Positions 4,542 through 48,280 of a stretch of DNA of 64,000 nt are shown one piece after another; position 1 is the stretch's first letter; each line of letters begins with the position of its first letter. The notes under the pieces were generated by a model. The model was not told the origin of the DNA, searched no databases, and saw only the letters and a list, made by a program, of their open reading frames with translations. The DNA is taken from the IMG/VR virus record IMGVR_UViG_3300010938_000009, positions 40,284 through 104,283 of that record; one strand, given 5' to 3'. The stretch comes from a virus. Made by a program: the position numbers and the translations under genes.

Positions 4542-7500
4542 TTATTTACTTTCTGCCCAATTATCTGAAATTACGGGTTCAGCTTTTAAGGGTACGCTGA
4601 TTTTAATAGTATTTTCCATAGTTTCTTTCATAATTTTACTGGCTATTTCGGATTGGTCTTCCCTTACTATACAAGTAACTTCATCGTGAACCATAAGTAA
4701 AATATCTGCGTCGATATTATTAGCTTTAAAAGCTTTTGTTAAAGCTATCATAGATCTATTTATTATAGTTGCAGCTAAGCCTTGAATTTTAAAATTTTTA
4801 GCATTATTTAGAAGATTTTTATACTCTCTTCTTACCTTTTCTAGACCTTTTTTAGCTGCCCATTTATAATCTAAAATCTCACTATCATTATACATTGCTG
4901 CAGTTAATCTAGCTTGTTTTAAATGTCTTACTCTACCAAATTCCGTTTTTACAAAACCATATTTTTTAGCTTCATAATTACATTGATTCATATATTTTTT
5001 TAAATTAGGGTAAGCTTCTAAATAATCATTAATAATTCTATGAGCTTCTTGCCAAGATACGTTCAGTATATCCTTCACTCTTGAAGCTTCAGCACCATAA
5101 ACTACTGCTAAGCAAAAAGCCTTACTTTTTTGTCTAGCTTCTTTTTCATGTAAACCTAGATAATTAGGATCTTTTTTATTAGCGCTATAATCACTTAAAT
5201 TAAAAACATCAATAGCAATACGACTATATAGGTCTTCTCCATTTCTAAACACATTTCTGAGAGACTCATCGCCTGAAACATGAGCAAAACATATCGGTTC
5301 CAGACTATTATAATCGGCATTAAGTATTTTATAACCTTCTGGAGCTATAAAACCTTTTCTAATTTGATTAGAATATTTTAAAACTATTTCAGATATGCCA
5401 GAATCTTCGTCTTTTATTCGAGGTAAATTTTGACAGTTACCTGTTATGAAGGTATCTGAACCTCTACGAGCTATAAACATAGAACTAGGAACAGAAACAC
5501 ACCAAACCTTTTCACTAGAGATCTCTGAATTTATTTCAGCATTTGCTGTTAAAGAGAAATTTCTTTTAGTTATTTGTAACTCATAATTATTATTATTAGC
5601 TATTGTTTTATAAATTCTTTTGTGTGCTCGCCAACCTTCCATAACACACAAGGCTTGTATTAAATCGACATTTAATTCTTCATTAGAACTATAGTTACAT
5701 TTTCTAGTACTAAGATCATCCCATTCAAATATCTCTTTTAATACTGTCTTTCTTTCTTCTGAACCTAAAGTTACCCAATTATTAGGAAATATTTTTTCAT
5801 AACCAATAATATTAATGATAGCGTCTTTACAACCACTAACTAAAATTTCATACATACCATTTTTAGATTTATCTTCTACTAAGAATTTAAAATTATTTAA
5901 AATCTCAAGTAACCTATTATATTTTCTTTTTTTATAAAATCTAAATCTTATTTTAGAAGAATCTTTTCTTATTTCTGAATCCGCTTGACACGCTACTACA
6001 AACCTTAACCAATTTAAATCATAACCTTGAGGAATTGTTAAAGTGTGTATTCCATGATAAATTCTAGCATCTTTTGGAAAATTTTTTGCAGGTTTTTCGC
6101 ACATTTTATTGTTATTATGTCTATCAAAGTAGATAATTCTATGATTATCTGTCAGTCTCATATTAAGGTGTTGATTTTTAATAGTAATAATAGTTTTATT
6201 ATTATTTTCTGATAAATAAATATTATCTGGTGTTTCAAAAATTATTTTATCACCATCAAAACTAGCTATTTCGGTATATTTATTTATTTCGTTATATTTT
6301 TTAAAACCTTTATTCGTAAGAATTTCTGTATCCAAACTCAAACAATTTGGATTCCTACTACTATATCTACCTGAAGTAGTACCAAATTGTAGCATACTCG
6401 CATAAATATAACCATCTATTTGTCTTTCTAAAATACCTTCTACATAAGTTGATAATAGTTTATTAAGTTTCTTATAATCTAATAATTTCTTTATAGCACT
6501 TTTACGTTTAGCTACTAATTCTAGGAAATCATCGTCAATTTTAGGTTTACCTGTTTCAGTTTTCTCTTGAGGATTTAACTTCCATACCTTACATATCAAG
6601 TATGCTAAGTGATCATTACTAGACAAATTAAACACGTACTTTCTATTCTGATCAGCTAACAGCATATTTCGTTGTACAGCCTGTAATATAGAATCTGCTA
6701 GTTTATAAGGACTATTACTTATTATACTATCGTAAAAGTCTGAGTGAATAGGAGTTAGTTCTTTTTGTTTCTCTATAGCTTTCTTAGCTAGAGTTACTTT
6801 ACCTGTCTTAACACTTACTGGTAAAGGTATATTAAGATGTTCTGCTAGTTTTACTGGAAATAAACCACTAGTTTTGATAGGATAGTCCTTATCTAGTAAC
6901 TCTTGTTCAAAATTAGCTACTAGAGGTTTAATTTCTTGCATTATTTCAGTTTCCAGTTTAAGTATTTCTTGAGTAATTTCAGTTTTTAGGTTATTAAAGT
7001 GATCTAAGTCTATTTTAAAACCTTTACGTTTCATATTAATAGTAACGTGCTTATATAAAGGCATTACCTCATCCACGTAAAATAGGTTTACTAGGTCTTC
7101 TTCTATAAGTCTTGACTCATATATATTAAATAACATTATGGTTAAAATAACGTCATGACAACAATATTCTGATAGGATTTCTGTGTCGGCCAAATGTATG
7201 TCTTTTTGAGTCTTGACGAATTTTCCGCCGTTAGCTAATACGTTTTCTTTTAGTTTATCTTGAGCTTTATCGGCCCAATCTCCTAGCTCTTTAGTAGCTA
7301 TTTCTTTTAGAGCAAAGGGAGGTTCTTCTTCTAAAGTATGTTTTTGTAGGATAGTATCTGAATAAATATAGTCTGTTAAGTTTATACCTAAATTATTCTC
7401 TATAACTAGAATATCATATATAATGTTGTGACCAATAAGTCTAAATTTAGAACAGGTATCTTCAAGCCATTGACTTATAGTTATTTGTTGTTCTTTAGTC

Positions 7501-42497: not shown

Positions 42498-44099
42498 ATG
42501 CAAGTTCAATATAATACAGAAGGTAAACCTTTAAGAATAAATGAACTCGACATAGAAGGTTTAGCTAAATGGTTATATGAAAATAAAGTTAGAACGACTC
42601 AAGGTAAATTATATCAACCATTACATAAGGGACATTTAGAAGTTTTAAAAGATCCAGCTAGATTCAAAGTTTTAGCTTGCGGTAGAAGATGGGGGAAAAC
42701 TTTATTAACTTCTTTAATGGCTTTAGCTGTTCTGTTTCAAATGAACAGAAGAGTTTGGATTATTGGCCCAGATTATTCTTTGTGTGAAAAGGTTTTTAGA
42801 GAACTTTATAGCATTTTAGTATTACAATTGAAGATTATAGTTCCTGGAAAAAAAGGACGTGCTCGGAACCAAAAAGGGGATTATTACTTAGAAACTCCTT
42901 GGGGAAGCATATTAGAAGCTAAATCAATGGAGAATCCTGACAGTTTAGCAGGAGAAGCGAACGACCTAATTATTATAGATGAAGCAGCTCTTACAACTAA
43001 TTTAGAAAATATATGGGTGCAAATGCTAAATCCGACGTTAATGGATAAAGAAGGTTCAGCAATTTTTATTTCTACACCACGAGGTAAAAATAATTTTTAT
43101 AAACTATTTTTATTTGGTGAAAAAGGTAAACGACAAAGAGAGGGTAAACTTAAAATAACCATAGATCCAGAAACAGGCATTAATAACGATATGACTGAAT
43201 GGAGTAGTTTTCAGAGAACTAGTTACGATAACCCTTTGTTAGCAGCTACGCCAGAAAAATCTAAAAGTGAAATTGATGCTGCTTATAGACGCTCTATAAT
43301 GTCTGGTAAAATAGTCATGTTTAAACAAGAATACTTAGCAGATTTTGAATCAGTTTCTGACAGTTGTTTTCCAGGTTTTAACGTAGAAGCTACTGAAAAA
43401 ATACAATATCCTAATGTAATAGATTATAATTGGCACCCTGATGAAGGCCCAATTTACTCAGCTTGCGATCATAACTTTGCTAAACCAGCAAGTACTATAT
43501 TCGCTCAAGTAAATCAATTTGGAGACGTAGTAATATTTGATGAATATTTTACACCACATACAACCTCCTACATGCAAGCCCAACAAATAGTAGACAAAGA
43601 AAGAGAACTTACAAGAAGAGCTATAAAAATTTGGGACGACGAAGCACAATTATTAAAAAATAGAAGACATATAAAATTTGAAGAAATAATAGCAGATATT
43701 TCAGGAGATCAAGTACAACTACATGGTAGAGCAGCTTGGGATGATTTTGAAGCAGTTTTAGGTAGAAGACCAAAAGGTTTAGCTCAAAATAGAGAAACAG
43801 GTTGTAATATGATAAGACTTTGGTTACAATTTCCAAAGTTTGATCAAAAAGGACAGCCAGTATTCGACAAAAACAACGAACAAGAAACTTACCCTAAATT
43901 ATTTGTTTCTAGTAATTGTACTAATTTAATTTACGCTTTAAGTACTGCTAAGTTCAAAAAAGGAAACGGCGGCAACTTAAAAGAAGATTATGAAGAAACT
44001 CCAGAAGGTTACGAAGGTTTAATTGATGCTTTACGTTATTTAATAGTATACTTATTTCACAATAAGGGTAATTACGTAGAAGTTTACAAAGGATTTTAA
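42498..44099 (+). CDS. terL: terminase large subunit
   Basis: ACGRRWGKT Walker A, IIIDEAA Walker B, ISTPRG, QEYLADF, nuclease DHNF...DALRY. Confidence 0.93.
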   Translation: MQVQYNTEGKPLRINELDIEGLAKWLYENKVRTTQGKLYQPLHKGHLEVLKDPARFKVLACGRRWGKTLLTSLMALAVLFQMNRRVWIIGPDYSLCEKVFRELYSILVLQLKIIVPGKKGRARNQKGDYYLETPWGSILEAKSMENPDSLAGEANDLIIIDEAALTTNLENIWVQMLNPTLMDKEGSAIFISTPRGKNNFYKLFLFGEKGKRQREGKLKITIDPETGINNDMTEWSSFQRTSYDNPLLAATPEKSKSEIDAAYRRSIMSGKIVMFKQEYLADFESVSDSCFPGFNVEATEKIQYPNVIDYNWHPDEGPIYSACDHNFAKPASTIFAQVNQFGDVVIFDEYFTPHTTSYMQAQQIVDKERELTRRAIKIWDDEAQLLKNRRHIKFEEIIADISGDQVQLHGRAAWDDFEAVLGRRPKGLAQNRETGCNMIRLWLQFPKFDQKGQPVFDKNNEQETYPKLFVSSNCTNLIYALSTAKFKKGNGGNLKEDYEETPEGYEGLIDALRYLIVYLFHNKGNYVEVYKGF

Positions 44100-45251: not shown

Positions 45252-48200
45252 TTGAGTTTTAACCTAGGCGTGTCTAATCATCCAACGAGTAGATTAGGCG
45301 GATTAAGTTCTGTAGGGATTTATCTTTACGAAGATATTTACTATAGACAGTGGATCAGTGAGATCGCCTTGGCCTTTTATGAAGGTGAATATATCGGCCT
45401 TCGCTTTAAGTAATTAAAGAGTTATGATGCGACAAGACGAATTAAGATAAGTTCGTCGGTAACGAAAGTTACAAAAATAATATAAATAACCACAAAATGT
45501 TATCTGGTTAGACTTAGAGTAAGACAGTTTCGTAATCCTGAGAAAATTTAAAAACTGTTTACTGAGTCTCTAAAATGGGGTGAATTGCTGGAAACTCCTA
45601 AAACTCACATAGCTACAAAGTAAATCGAAAGATTAAGCTTGACATGCTAGAGAATATGTGAGATACTCCTTAAAAGGTGTAATGGATAATCAGCAGCTAA
45701 GCGTAGTAGGGTTTAAGTTACTGCGAAAGTTCAACGACTAGAAGGTGAGTCCCAACAATAAGTCCTTCCTGAGAGTGCCCGATCCTGACCGAGTAAAGTC
45801 GAAGGATAAGATATAGTCTACTCCTATTTGAAAAAAGAGGTATATGATTAACGTAAAAAAATTAAAAAGTTCCGAATTAGATTCCGCCATATATGGTATG
45901 ATTCTAGGTGATGGATGTATACAAATGGCTAGTTCTGGAAAAGGAAATAGCAATTTAAAAATAGGACATTCAATAAAACAAGAAGAGTATTTAAAATGGA
46001 AACAAGAGATTGTAAATCAAATTGGAACGGTAAAAACTAGATTTTGGTATTATCAAAAACAAAACGCTTGTTATATAGAAACCAACACTAGAAACTACTT
46101 TACTAAATTAGAAAAAATATTTTATATTAACAGAAAAAAAACTATTAATAAAAAAATATTGAATAAATTAACAGATTTATCTTTAGCTATATGGTTTTTA
46201 GATAATGGTTATATGAGTTATAATAAATCTGGTTCTGTTTACGGAGAACTCTGTACAGATCAATTTAGTTTAGAAAAAGTACAATTAATAAAAGATTGGT
46301 TTAAAATTAAATTTAATATGGAAGTTGGTATTAGAACTTTACGATATTTAAGCGGCAAACAAAAAGATACTATAGCTTATAGAATAAAGTTTAACAAAGA
46401 AAACTGTATTAAATTAACAGAAATAATTAAACCTTATGTTAATCAAGTGAGTTGTATGCACTATAAATTATACGAGAATAAAATTGCTTCTCAGGCAGTA
46501 GAGAAATCTTCTGTGCAAAAATCTGTTATTGAAGCAACAGATACTACCACTTAATCTTACTAAAGAGATTATAGATGAAACCTCTATACTATATAGAGAA
46601 GATCCTATATATCAAGTAGTAGATGATAAGGGTAAGATATTAAAAAAAGATCAAGAATTATGGGAGCAAATCCAAAAGGATTCTCGCTACTTGACCTTTA
46701 TGGACAAACTTGATAGATGGGTACGACTACTAGGTACCGTACTAGTTAAAGTTTCTTTTGTAGATCCGCAGACTGGACTACTAGTAGATAAAAATAAAGA
46801 AGGTACTGTACAACTGGATATGCTACATGGCGGCGTATACGATATAAGACATGGAGCTTCTCCCTACTATATTACAGAATTACTTATAGGTTTTGGCACT
46901 AAATTTGGAGGATTCAGAGAAAGATCTGGAACTCAAATTATAGGCGGATCACTTACAGGTAAATTACCTGATCCTAGTAGTATGGGGCAAGCCGACATAA
47001 AAACACGACAACGAATTGATTCTCCAGGACAATTAGGTTCAGTTAATAGAATTTATTGGAGTGCTCACTCACATTACGTTGAGGACGAAGATAGTAAGTA
47101 TTACGAAACTAAAAATCCTTATGGAATAATTCCTGCTGTGCCGTTTTTTAATCAAGACCCAGCTCACTATTACTTTTTACCAATTAATGAACCTCTTATT
47201 TACGCTAATCATGCGACTAATATGAGGATTACAGATTTGAATCATATTGCTAAGTTTCAATCGTTTGGAGTACCTGTAGTAAGTGGTATCGAAAGACCTA
47301 CTTCACTAAGACAAGGTAGACCTGTAGACGATTTTAACGTATTAAAAGGTGGTACAGCTCAATCTAGATTTGGTGGAATTAGTGGTTTTGGAGCTAACGG
47401 ACAATTTAGAACCTTTGACCAAGGTTTAGGAGTAACAAGAGATGGAAACGCTGATGCTAATGCATTAGGTTTTTCTATTGGACCTGATACTGCTATAGCT
47501 GTTGGAGAAAAAGGGGATTTTAGATTTGAACACCCTTCTGCAGATATTACAGGCTTAATTAAGGTTATACATAGTATAACTGATATGGTTAGAATTAACC
47601 ACGGATTAAGACCTAAATATGAAAATACATTACCTTCATCAGGTTTTGCATTATTAATGGAGAAGATTGGTGTTATAGAAAATAATATTAGAAGAGGTAA
47701 ACTCTTTAAAGAAAGAGAAGAACAACTTTTCAATGTTATTAAGAATTTGTGGAATGTACATCATAATAAATCAGGAAGTAAAAGGTTTTCTGAAAAAGCT
47801 AAGTTAATTATAACTTACGTTAATCCTAAATTTCCAGTTGACCCTAAAACTGAAAAAGAAGATATTATGATGGAAAGTAAAATAGTAGAAACTGGAGACA
47901 GAGCTGCTATTAAAAGAATGTATCCACACATAAAAGAACCAGAAATAGATAAATTAATTATACAAGCAAGAAAAGATAAAGAAGAAAGATCCTTATTTGA
48001 AGCTGAACTTCAAGCCAAGGTTACTGAGATTATAGGACCTAAAGAAGATCCTAAAAATCCTGGAGCTAAACATAAATATTTAAGAAAATCTAAAGAAGCA
48101 GAAAGCGACAAAGAAACTTATATTTATGAAGACGAAGACGGAAAAGAAAAAGAAGTCAAAAGATTAGATAAGAGTAAGGAAAAACTAGGTAAGCCTAAGA

Positions 48201-48280
48201 TCGATAATAAAGCAAAACACGCTGAAGAAAGTTCTAAGCAACCTGGTAAAAATGGTGATCCAAGAAGAAAAGAGGAGTAA
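45252..48280 (+). CDS. portal protein, spliced from 5 exons (45252-45386, 45430-45442, 45500-45515, 45518-45542, 46532-48280; ~645 aa)
   Basis: AGGAGG SD + TTG start. The joined exons read ...ALAFYEG-RQDEFIWLDLVRQFRNPE-KQQILPLNLTKEIIDETSILY. Exon 5 has SPP1-like portal motifs (NPYGIIPAVPF, SGFALL). Position after terL. Confidence 0.8.
45387..45429 (+). ncRNA. core-less group I-like mini-intron A (43 nt)
   Basis: P1 GAAGGU/GCCUUC with U.G at the 5' site, P10 CGA/UCG, CUUUAA-GUAA-UUAAAG hairpin, terminal G. Confidence 0.7.
45443..45499 (+). ncRNA. core-less group I-like mini-intron B (57 nt)
   Basis: P1 GACGAAU/GUUCGUC with U.G, P10 UUAUCU/AGAUAA, GUAAC-GAAA-GUUAC hairpin, terminal G. Confidence 0.75.
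45543..46531 (+). mobile_element. group I intron (IA-like) carrying a LAGLIDADG ORF
   Basis: P GAAUUGCUGGAAA (45582), Q AAUCAGCAG (45688), R GUUCAACGACUA (45729), S AAGAUAUAGUC (45808), P7.1 GAAGG/CCUUC. Exact ends could shift 3 nt (45546-46534) with the same protein product. Confidence 0.88.
45844..46554 (+). CDS. intron-encoded LAGLIDADG homing endonuclease/maturase
   Basis: IYGMILGDGCI and LAIWFLDNGY motifs. Confidence 0.88.
   Translation: MINVKKLKSSELDSAIYGMILGDGCIQMASSGKGNSNLKIGHSIKQEEYLKWKQEIVNQIGTVKTRFWYYQKQNACYIETNTRNYFTKLEKIFYINRKKTINKKILNKLTDLSLAIWFLDNGYMSYNKSGSVYGELCTDQFSLEKVQLIKDWFKIKFNMEVGIRTLRYLSGKQKDTIAYRIKFNKENCIKLTEIIKPYVNQVSCMHYKLYENKIASQAVEKSSVQKSVIEATDTTT

What the first reader, a model, noticed from the sequence alone, without database searches (positions are those of the whole stretch)
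45381..45505. Two core-less satellite mini-introns (43 and 57 nt) with identical architecture
Seen, intron A: exon GAAGGU(45381-86) pairs with GCCUUC(45397-402) with a terminal U.G. UCG(45394-96) pairs with the next exon's CGA. A CUUUAA-GUAA-UUAAAG hairpin follows, and it ends ...AUG. Seen, intron B: GACGAAU(45436-42) pairs with GUUCGUC(45451-57). AGAUAA(45445-50) pairs perfectly with the next exon's UUAUCU. A GUAAC-GAAA-GUUAC hairpin follows, and it ends ...AUG. The sequences differ but the layout is the same: P10-P1 guide, GNRA hairpin, omega-G. They are separated by a 13-nt micro-exon. Established: GNRA loops such as L2 dock on receptors such as P8 to position P1. Inference: these are minimal non-autonomous introns that borrow the neighbouring core.
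Basis: partly seen in the sequence, partly recalled or inferred. Interest (0 to 1): 0.88.

Follow-up and report, generated by a model that had tools for sequence, protein, structure and literature searches.

The report
Two core-less mini-introns in portal gene
Two short inserts (43 and 57 bases) that break an uncultivated phage's only portal-like gene keep the splice-site guide helices of self-splicing group I introns but have no catalytic part. They most likely depend on the one complete intron just downstream to cut them out, which I found described for no natural intron.

Summary

Uninterrupted homologues read YEG-RQDEF(I/V)WLDLVRQFRNPEK-QQILP. This shows that 45387-45429 and 45443-45499 are inserts and that the 13-nt piece between them is real coding sequence (RQDE plus the first base of an invariant Phe codon).

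Both inserts look like group I introns that lost P3-P9. They kept P1 with a closing U.G, an adjacent P10 guide, a P2-like GNRA hairpin and a terminal G.

Two related phages carry further mini-introns (35 and 36 nt) with the same guide layout. One is a plain core-deletion of a full intron seen at that site in other phages.

Mini-introns occur only in genes that also carry the full intron at the PEK/QQ site: 3 of 6 carriers against 0 of 68 other genes. This genome holds a single group I core.

That full intron keeps its own guide about 40 nt from its 3' end, roughly 900 nt from its 5' splice site, so its core already works on a distant guide module.

Borrowed-core splicing is the best reading (about 0.6), but no RNA data exist.

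Unchecked notes of this scan report similar core-less mini-introns in capsid genes of other phages. I found no published description.

The parts
45252..45386 (+). Exon 1 of the portal-like gene (TTG start behind AAGGAGG; 45 codons ending ...ALAFYEG). The last 6 nt, GAAGGU, form the 5' strand of P1 of intron A.
   Evidence: ORF list. tblastn of homologue P0002 residues 1-45 at 84% identity. Homologue N-termini.
45387..45429 (+). Mini-intron A, 43 nt. P10 guide UCG 45394-96, P1 guide GCCUUC 45397-402, hairpin 45404-19 with GUAA loop, terminal G 45429. It has no P3-P9.
   Evidence: It lies at the same site (YEG|RQDE) and has the same 5' layout (..AUCG-GCCYUC-UUUAA..) as the full introns of L005, L007 and L013 and the 35-nt mini-intron of L129.
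45430..45442 (+). Micro-exon 2, 13 nt (CGA CAA GAC GAA U = RQDE plus the first base of the Phe codon). Ten of its 13 nt are engaged in guide pairings: P10 of A and P1 of B.
   Evidence: Homologue consensus YEGRQDEF. The join gives an open frame.
45443..45499 (+). Mini-intron B, 57 nt. P10 guide AGAUAA 45445-50, P1 guide GUUCGUC 45451-57, P2-like hairpin 45459-72 with GAAA loop, A-rich tail, terminal G 45499.
   Evidence: p = 0.0002; z = -3.1. Read by eye, its P1-P2-J2/3 layout resembles the 5' end of the ORF-less canonical intron of L117, which has the same core family as the helper.
45500..45515 (+). Exon 3, 16 nt (UU AUC UGG UUA GAC UU = rest of Phe, then I W L D and two bases of Leu).
45516..45517 (+). 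Two extra bases, AG, that must go for the frame to continue. They are flanked by AGACUU and AGUAA-G-ACAGUUU, which pair with the guide at 45552-45569 at the 5' end of the full intron.
   Evidence: pairings; frame. This was another first-reader note; I did not resolve it.
45518..45542 (+). Exon 4, 25 nt (A GUA AGA CAG UUU CGU AAU CCU GAG = end of Leu, then VRQFRNPE).
45543..46531 (+). Full group I intron, 989 nt, the presumed helper. It has a 5' guide at 45552-69 and a core at about 45570-45840. The LAGLIDADG ORF runs 45844-46554. The intron's own splice guide UUGCUUCUCAGG lies at 46484-95, followed by a GAAA hairpin at 46496-46514. The terminal G is 46531.
   Evidence: Rfam RF00028 at 57.7 bits and the only hit in the 104-kb genome. 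36 of 64 core pairs show compensatory changes across 7 relatives. PF03161 E = 8e-34. The 12-nt guide is the exact complement of CCUGAG|AAGCAA.
46532..48280 (+). Exon 5 (KQQILPLNLTKE... to the stop codon).

Best explanation
A and B are group I introns that have lost the whole catalytic core (P3-P9, including the guanosine-binding P7). They keep only the substrate side of the ribozyme. That side is a 5' splice-site helix P1 closed by U.G, an internal guide whose adjoining bases pair with the next exon (P10), a P2-like hairpin and a terminal G.

They cannot catalyse their own removal. The proposed route is this. On the portal pre-mRNA each P1-P10 module docks into the folded core of the complete intron 45-160 nt downstream. 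That core then carries out the usual two transesterifications on it: guanosine attack after the U of the U.G pair, then attack of the freed 5' exon behind the terminal G.

What is shown:
- The inserts, their guides and the micro-exon are real.
- Removing them, together with the 2-nt AG and the 989-nt intron, rebuilds a 645-codon frame identical in layout to uninterrupted homologues.
- The genome has one core and one portal-like gene.
- The helper's own guide sits far from its 5' splice site.

What is inferred: that excision happens at the RNA level, that the neighbouring core is the catalyst, and the order of events. A likely origin is deletion of the core from canonical introns that had homed into sites next to an intact intron. 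Such a remnant may persist because it still blocks the cognate homing endonuclease; that last point is speculation.
For: 1. Homology fixes the exons. 41 aligned full-length homologues have YEG-RQDEF(I/V)WLDLVRQFRNPEK-QQILP, with R46, Q47, D48, F50, L53, D54, L55, Q58-P62 and K64 invariant. The window encodes exactly these residues in pieces, and the five-piece join is one 645-codon frame.

2. The guides are not chance. Shuffle p values are 0.019, 0.0002, 0.0003 and 0.017 for the four mini-introns. All four follow a U and end in G.

3. Descent from real introns. L005, L007 and L013 carry 870-920-nt introns at exactly site A with the same ..UCG-GCCCUC guide. The L129 mini-intron (35 nt) equals the first 28 nt of such an intron plus 7 nt.

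4. Compensatory change between the window and L129:
- P1: GAAGGU/GCCUUC against GAGGGU/GCCCUC.
- P10: CGA/UCG against CGC/GCG.

5. Co-occurrence. Of 74 distinct genes, 6 carry the full PEK/QQ-site intron and 3 of these carry mini-introns, at three different sites. None of the other 68 does (Fisher p = 0.0003). The carriers are scattered over the protein tree.

6. There is only one group I core in the 104-kb genome and no second portal copy. The core is intact and covaries.

7. In the window, L022, L029 and L129 the helper's own P10+P1 guide lies 32-42 nt before its 3' end, after the endonuclease ORF, and is followed by a GAAA hairpin. The guides span 12, 11, 16 and 16 contiguous pairs, and L029 and L129 covary (GGGAUU against GGGGUU). 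The layout is the same as in the mini-introns. In L012 and L020 the adjacency score did not exceed shuffles (p about 0.22 and 0.65).

8. In L129 the exon between the mini-intron and the helper differs from its intron-less sister L120 at about 13 of 51 nt, all synonymous.

9. Feasibility is shown by engineering:
- A Tetrahymena group I 'spliceozyme' removes introns from a separate pre-mRNA (PMC4094466).
- An Azoarcus ribozyme works with its guide supplied in trans (PMC2709566).
- That a core lacking P1 can act on a separate P1 hairpin (Szostak 1986) is cited from my own knowledge.
Against: There is no RNA evidence at all.

Four mini-introns in three genomes is a small sample, and intron-rich lineages would also leave more remnants by chance.

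Two of the four lack the GNRA hairpin, so the docking contacts are undefined.

The helper itself is odd. Its inferred 5' splice site follows G, paired with C, not the U.G that the first step of group I splicing normally needs. The frame also needs a further 2-nt removal. The full pathway is therefore not understood, and the gene could conceivably be defective.

The synonymous-only divergence of the micro-exons could predate the loss of the cores.
Confidence: 0.6

Rival explanations
1. Dead remnants. A and B are scars of decayed introns and are not removed. The gene is broken in this genome, or the phage makes only the 583-residue product from the internal TTG at 46529, perhaps with the 53-residue exon-1 peptide made separately.
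For: - Gene callers predicted only the 583-residue ORF.
- The extra AG at 45516-17 and the non-U 5' splice site of the big intron look like defects.
- CheckV-type completeness is listed as 56.
Against: - The 18 residues that would be lost are the most conserved stretch of the protein.
- All three small exons still encode them exactly. Every junction has a matching guide, a preceding U and a terminal G.
- The remaining 1.7 kb of the gene is open.
- There is no second copy.
- The record has terminal repeats.
- The same design recurs in two other phages whose spliced frames are intact, at 647 and 639 codons.
Confidence: 0.15
2. One large intron. The P1 of A serves a single 1145-nt intron (45387-46531) and the micro-exons are skipped. 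This gives an in-frame portal protein 18 residues shorter (...YEG|KQQILP...).
For: 45386 and 46532 are both codon boundaries. A has a canonical U.G P1, and G46531 is the terminal G of the large intron. This could occur as a side reaction.
Against: - It would delete the invariant RQDEF.WLDLVRQFRNPE block.
- A's P10 guide UCG matches CGA at 45430, not AAG at 46532.
- It does not explain B's own P1 and 6-bp P10, the 12-nt guide for CCUGAG|AAGCAA, or the exact preservation of the micro-exon codons.
Confidence: 0.07
3. Autonomous minimal ribozymes. A and B splice themselves, as claimed for the 56-81-nt 'degenerate' group I introns of fungal rDNA.
For: Harris and Rogers (PMC3160393) describe 63-75-nt introns with P1, P7, P10 and an intron-to-3'-exon helix, and cite in-vitro splicing of the 67-nt PaSSU intron. 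The L022 and L129 mini-introns also have an intron-to-3'-exon helix.
Against: I saw no P7-like guanosine pocket in A or B. Their non-guide sequence is one simple hairpin plus an A/U-rich tail. Mini-introns occur only beside a full intron, which autonomy would not predict.
Confidence: 0.06
4. Translational bypassing. [quoted passage not shown]
For: The size range (43 and 57 nt), the phage setting, a nearby homing endonuclease and a hairpin near each 'take-off' point all resemble gene 60.
Against: - There are no matched take-off and landing codons: GGU against AUG for A, and none for B.
- No stop codon follows the take-off codon of A (GAA follows).
- B lies in codon phase 1. Only joining U45442 to UU45500-01 rebuilds the invariant Phe. 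Any hop that lands in frame gives RQDE-VIW, one residue short.
- Hopping does not explain the P10 guides or the terminal G.
Confidence: 0.04

Closest known systems
Canonical phage group I introns with homing endonucleases (T4 td, nrdB and sunY; Staphylococcus phage Twort orf142 with three introns in one gene); Rfam RF00028
   Same: P1 closed by U.G, P10 formed by the bases just 5' of the P1 guide, a terminal G, a location in an essential phage gene and several interruptions close together. The helper core aligns to Twort-like Staphylococcus phage introns at about 80% over 75 nt.
   Different: A and B have no P3-P9 at all and are 43 and 57 nt long, against 250 nt or more. They cannot be self-splicing ribozymes. 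The neighbouring full intron carries its guide at its 3' end instead of next to the 5' splice site.
Small 'degenerate' group I introns of fungal nuclear rDNA (PaSSU of Phialophora, Arthonia, Porpidia; 56-81 nt; PMC3160393)
   Same: Tiny size, retained P1 and P10, and origin by reduction of larger group I introns. [quoted passage not shown]
   Different: The fungal introns are reported to keep a P7 guanosine site, to end in U and to splice on their own in vitro. They sit in rRNA genes. The phage mini-introns have no P7, end in G, sit in a protein-coding gene and occur only beside a complete intron.
T4 gene 60 50-nt coding gap
   Same: A short non-coding insert in an essential phage gene, linked to a homing endonuclease and possibly an intron remnant (PMC5009743).
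   Different: The gene 60 gap is bypassed by the ribosome using matched GGA codons, a stop codon and a nascent-peptide signal. None of these fits here, whereas group I splice-site guides do.
Engineered trans-acting group I systems: 'spliceozyme' (PMC4094466) and Azoarcus ribozyme with guide supplied in trans (PMC2709566)
   Same: A group I core removes an intron that has no catalytic part of its own, or uses a guide that is not covalently next to it.
   Different: Those are laboratory constructs in which the guide belongs to the ribozyme. Here each mini-intron carries its own guide and the system would be natural.
Euglena plastid group III introns and other reduced group II introns (from my own knowledge)
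   Same: The same evolutionary logic: self-splicing introns reduced to about 100 nt that keep the splice-site elements and are thought to rely on catalytic parts supplied elsewhere.
   Different: A different intron class and chemistry (lariat, domains V and VI), in an organelle rather than a phage.

Membership tests
Group I intron (RF00028) | P1 helix between the 5' exon end and an internal guide, closed by a U.G pair at the splice site | tested here: met
   A: GAAGGU/GCCUUC. B: GACGAAU/GUUCGUC. Both end in U.G and both are predicted by RNAfold.
Group I intron (RF00028) | P10 between the 3' exon start and the bases directly 5' of the P1 guide, with a terminal (omega) G | tested here: met
   A: CGA/UCG (3 bp), G45429. 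B: UUAUCU/AGAUAA (6 bp), G45499.
Group I intron (RF00028) | Catalytic core P3-P9 with the guanosine-binding site in P7 | tested here: not met
   Apart from the guides, the 43 and 57 nt hold only one hairpin and a tail. The Rfam match starts at 45522, downstream of both. nhmmer with the family's core profile finds one core in the genome, at 45570-45848.
Group I intron (RF00028) | Excision by two guanosine-initiated transesterifications | not testable with these tools
   No sequencing run could be listed. Needs RT-PCR or an in-vitro GTP-labelling assay.
Fungal rDNA small degenerate group I introns | P1, P10 and a P7 guanosine pocket retained; terminal U; self-splicing | tested here: not met
   P1 and P10 are present, but no second helix with a bulged pocket exists in A or B, and the terminal base is G. 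Feature list from PMC3160393.
T4 gene 60-type translational bypass element | Identical take-off and landing codons flanking the gap, with a stop codon directly after take-off | tested here: not met
   A: GGU then GAA at take-off, AUG before the landing site. B lies in codon phase 1 with no matching codon pair.
Helper-dependent (core-less) group I mini-intron, as proposed here and in other notes of this scan | A complete group I intron on the same transcript, close downstream | tested here: met
   The helper 5' splice site lies 113 nt after the end of A and 43 nt after the end of B (45543). The same holds in L022 and L129. Association is 3 of 6 against 0 of 68.

The most novel reading that the evidence does not exclude
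One group I core acts as a small multi-substrate splicing enzyme for a whole gene. It would serve its own 3'-terminal guide module and two self-guided mini-introns. It would also serve 'nano-introns' of 2 nt (AG at 45516-17) and, in relatives L029 and L054, 1 nt (a bulged G), whose guides lie inside the large intron. That would be a natural ribozyme working in the manner of a spliceosome, and doing editing-like single-base removal.
Probability: 0.35. Interest if true: 0.92.

Novelty: new variant of a known kind. Interest (0 to 1): 0.8.

Why it matters
Group I introns are defined by self-splicing. A natural intron that keeps only the substrate helices and relies on another intron's core would be new. 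It would be the group I counterpart of the reduced group II and group III introns. It would also be a living example of the step from self-splicing introns to a shared, trans-acting splicing catalyst.

There is a practical side too. Gene callers split such genes: here only a 583-residue fragment was predicted. Essential phage genes in metagenomes may therefore be mis-annotated as truncated.

The system is small enough (about 1.3 kb, one core, four splice events) to test directly in vitro.

Tried and rejected
- My first idea was that A and B are merely the P1, P2 and P2.1 stems of one long intron. I rejected it once homologues showed that the 13-, 16- and 25-nt pieces encode invariant residues.
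- I considered translational bypass and rejected it on codon matching and phase (see rivals).
- Rfam at gathering thresholds on the whole window found nothing. The core appeared only in a local E-value search, at 57.7 bits.
- tblastn of the gene product against GenBank phages gave no match, so this is not a crAss-like or other catalogued phage.
- Pfam and PHROGs gave nothing for the window's own protein. One 62%-identical homologue reaches PF05133 SPP1_portal at 28.5 bits, so 'portal' rests on that and on the position after TerL.
- A profile of the family against PDB sequences gave no match.
- The look-up of sequencing runs: no run was listed and no RNA holder was listed.
- A pattern scan of IMG/VR for further site-A mini-introns returned only the L129 contig plus chance GC-rich hits.
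- For the extra G of L029, the guide score alone (8 pairs) is at chance level within a 1.3-kb intron. It gains weight only from its conservation in L054.
- Literature searches for phage mini-introns, helper-dependent or degenerate group I introns found only the fungal rDNA cases and engineered systems. Yutin et al. [quoted passage not shown]
Full report
**Setting.** The window is bases 40284-104283 of a 104,283-bp virus record with direct terminal repeats. A large terminase gene lies at 42498-44099. Behind three small ORFs, a gene opens at 45252 with a TTG start after AAGGAGG. It runs 45 codons to ...ALAFYEG and hits a stop 27 nt later. A long frame resumes near 46530 and runs to 48280.

Its product has hundreds of metagenomic homologues of about 610-650 residues and no family name. 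One homologue at 62% identity reaches PF05133 (SPP1-type portal) above threshold. I call it the portal-like gene. It has no second copy in the genome. GenBank phages hold no relative.

**The observation.** RNAfold predicts both P1 helices and both hairpins unaided.

The decisive independent check is protein homology. Full-length homologues read ...ALAFYEG RQDEF(I/V)WLDLVRQFRNPEK QQILP..., and this block is the most conserved part of the protein. The window encodes it in pieces:
- RQDE plus one base at 45430-42.
- The other two bases of the Phe codon plus IWLD(L) at 45500-15.
- (L)VRQFRNPE at 45518-42.
- KQQILP... from 46532.

Joining 45252-45386, 45430-45442, 45500-45515, 45518-45542 and 46532-48280 gives one 645-codon frame. 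So the 43-nt and 57-nt stretches are true intervening sequences and the 13-nt micro-exon is real.

With the boundaries set by the protein, I asked how often a shuffled insert gives a P1 guide directly abutted by a P10 guide at least as long as observed. The answer was p = 0.019 for A and 0.0002 for B. Each insert also follows a U and ends in G.

**What they are.** Related genomes were fetched from IMG/VR and JGI metagenomes and gave 74 distinct genes. They carry full group I introns with endonuclease ORFs at two nearby sites:
- At YEG|RQDE, exactly the site of A (L005, L007, L013 and others; 870-920 nt).
- At or within a few bases of PEK|QQ (window, L012, L020, L022, L029, L129; about 975-1030 nt).

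The site-A introns begin ..UCG-GCCCUC-UUUAAACUUCG.., which is the same P10-P1 guide layout as A.

L129 has a 35-nt insert at this site. It equals the first 28 nt of such an intron plus 7 nt ending in G. Its guides fit its own exons: GAGGGU/GCCCUC and CGC/GCG, where the window has GAAGGU/GCCUUC and CGA/UCG. A is therefore a core-deleted derivative of a canonical intron.

By eye, B's P1, GAAA-capped P2 and A-rich joiner resemble the 5' end of the 301-nt ORF-less canonical intron of L117. That intron has the same core family as the window's large intron.

L022 has a third kind, a 36-nt insert at WI|TE. Its P1 is GUGGAU/GUCCAC, its P10 is UACAG/CUGUA, and it ends in G.

After removal of their mini-intron and large intron, L129 and L022 read through for 647 and 639 codons.

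**Why a borrowed core is the best reading.** A and B contain nothing that could form P3-P9 or a guanosine pocket. The genome has exactly one group I core, at about 45570-45840. It is intact, and 36 of 64 pairs show compensatory change across seven relatives.

All three mini-intron carriers also carry the full PEK/QQ-site intron. That is 3 of 6 carriers, against 0 of 68 other distinct genes (p = 0.0003). The carriers are scattered over the protein tree beside intron-less sisters, and the mini-introns sit at three different sites. This is what rescue by a helper predicts: a core deletion survives only where another core is at hand.

The helper is also built for remote work. In the window, L022, L029 and L129 no guide for its own splice sites lies at its 5' end. 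Instead, a contiguous P10+P1 guide sits 32-42 nt before the 3' splice site, behind the endonuclease ORF. It spans 12, 11, 16 and 16 pairs, and in the window it is the exact complement of CCUGAG|AAGCAA. A GAAA hairpin and the terminal G follow it. In L012 and L020 the same score did not exceed shuffles. Where the guide is clear, the large intron's own substrate module has the same design as A and B and lies about 900 nt from its 5' splice site.

Laboratory work shows the chemistry is possible. A group I 'spliceozyme' removes introns from another RNA (PMC4094466). An Azoarcus ribozyme works with its guide supplied in trans (PMC2709566).

L129 and its intron-less sister L120 are about 90% identical in DNA. 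The 51-nt exon between L129's mini-intron and its helper differs from L120 at about 13 positions, all synonymous. This fits co-conversion during homing and protein-level selection on that exon.

**What remains open.** No RNA data could be obtained.

The inferred 5' splice site of the large intron follows G45542, paired to C, not a U.G. In L020 and L012 it follows A. Only L029 and L129 have the canonical U.G.

The frame also needs the loss of AG at 45516-17. These two bases are bulged between AGACUU/GAGUCU (ending in U.G) and AGUAA-G-ACAGUUU/AAACUGU-UUACU, formed with the 5' end of the large intron.

I found a parallel. L029 (also L024 and L140, from two samples) and the unrelated L054 both carry one extra G in the 3' exon (AAAUUCU-G-ACCC). 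Both also carry a conserved UAGGGUAGGA about 84 nt upstream in the intron that pairs with both flanks, followed by a covarying hairpin. L129 lacks both features. These may be 1-2-nt 'introns' removed by the same core, but the guide scores alone are weak.

**Rivals.** These are a defective gene, one large intron that skips the micro-exons, autonomous splicing like the fungal 56-81-nt rDNA introns (PMC3160393), and ribosomal bypass as in T4 gene 60 (PMC5009743). Each fails on specific points set out in the rival section. None can be excluded without RNA.

**Comparison and novelty.** A and B work like the substrate half of a group I intron, but they fail the defining test of the family, which is a catalytic core. 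The nearest natural things are the fungal degenerate introns, which are said to self-splice and keep a P7.

I found no description of helper-dependent group I mini-introns in phages. Unchecked notes of this scan report similar core-less mini-introns just upstream of full introns in capsid genes of other phages. This case adds:
- Two in tandem with a 13-nt micro-exon.
- A portal-like gene as host.
- Their origin by core deletion.
- A helper with a 3'-terminal guide.

Noticed in passing
window 45516-45517 with 45510-45530 and 45552-45569: Two extra bases (AG) break the frame between LDL and VRQ. The flanks pair with the 5' end of the large intron as a P1 (AGACUU/GAGUCU, U.G end) and a P10 (AGUAA/UUACU plus ACAGUUU/AAACUGU), leaving AG bulged with G as a possible terminal G. 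In L029, L022 and L129, which lack the extra bases, the same intron segment pairs with the uninterrupted VRQF codons.
   Followed up: partly
window 46484-46531; L022, L029 and L129 3' ends of the large intron: The large intron's own P10+P1 guide lies 32-42 nt before its 3' splice site, after the endonuclease ORF, not next to the 5' splice site. A GAAA hairpin and the terminal G follow it. This amounts to a permuted order: P1 5' strand, core, ORF, P1 3' strand, P2. In L012 and L020 the adjacency score does not exceed shuffles.
   Followed up: partly
window 45542|45543; L020, L012 and L022 equivalents: The inferred 5' splice site of the large intron follows G (G-C pair) in the window and L022, and A in L020 and L012. 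Only L029 and L129, which are inserted 3 nt upstream, have the canonical U.G.
   Followed up: partly
L029:3478 (also L024, L140) and L054:~987 (also L121): A single extra G in the 3' exon (AAAUUCU-G-ACCC) breaks the frame 18 nt after the splice site. Both lineages carry a conserved UAGGGUAGGA in the intron about 84 nt upstream that pairs with both flanks, followed by a covarying hairpin. Removing the G gives a 628-codon frame in L029.
   Followed up: partly
L022:2338-2373 and L129:3487-3521: Further core-less mini-introns of 36 and 35 nt sit in the same gene of other phages. In both, the middle of the insert pairs with the next exon over about 10 bp and encloses the 3' splice site in the loop, like the 'PM' helix of the fungal small introns.
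   Followed up: yes
L117:3573-3873 and L145:~4665-5500: L117 has an ORF-less 301-nt canonical group I intron of the same core family at residue 23/24, with P1 GGAAUUU/GAAUUCC and P2 carrying a GAAA loop. L145 has an 836-nt insert at residue 385/386. This gene is a hotspot with at least five insertion sites.
   Followed up: partly
window 45844-46554: The LAGLIDADG ORF (PF03161, E = 8e-34) ends 23 nt beyond the inferred 3' splice site, so its last codons overlap exon 5 and the 3' guide module lies inside its coding sequence.
   Followed up: no
L031:1401-3127: In this relative the gene loses frame after residue 85 and resumes at residue 133, with overlapping matches. This may be a deletion or a frameshift. 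I did not examine it.
   Followed up: no
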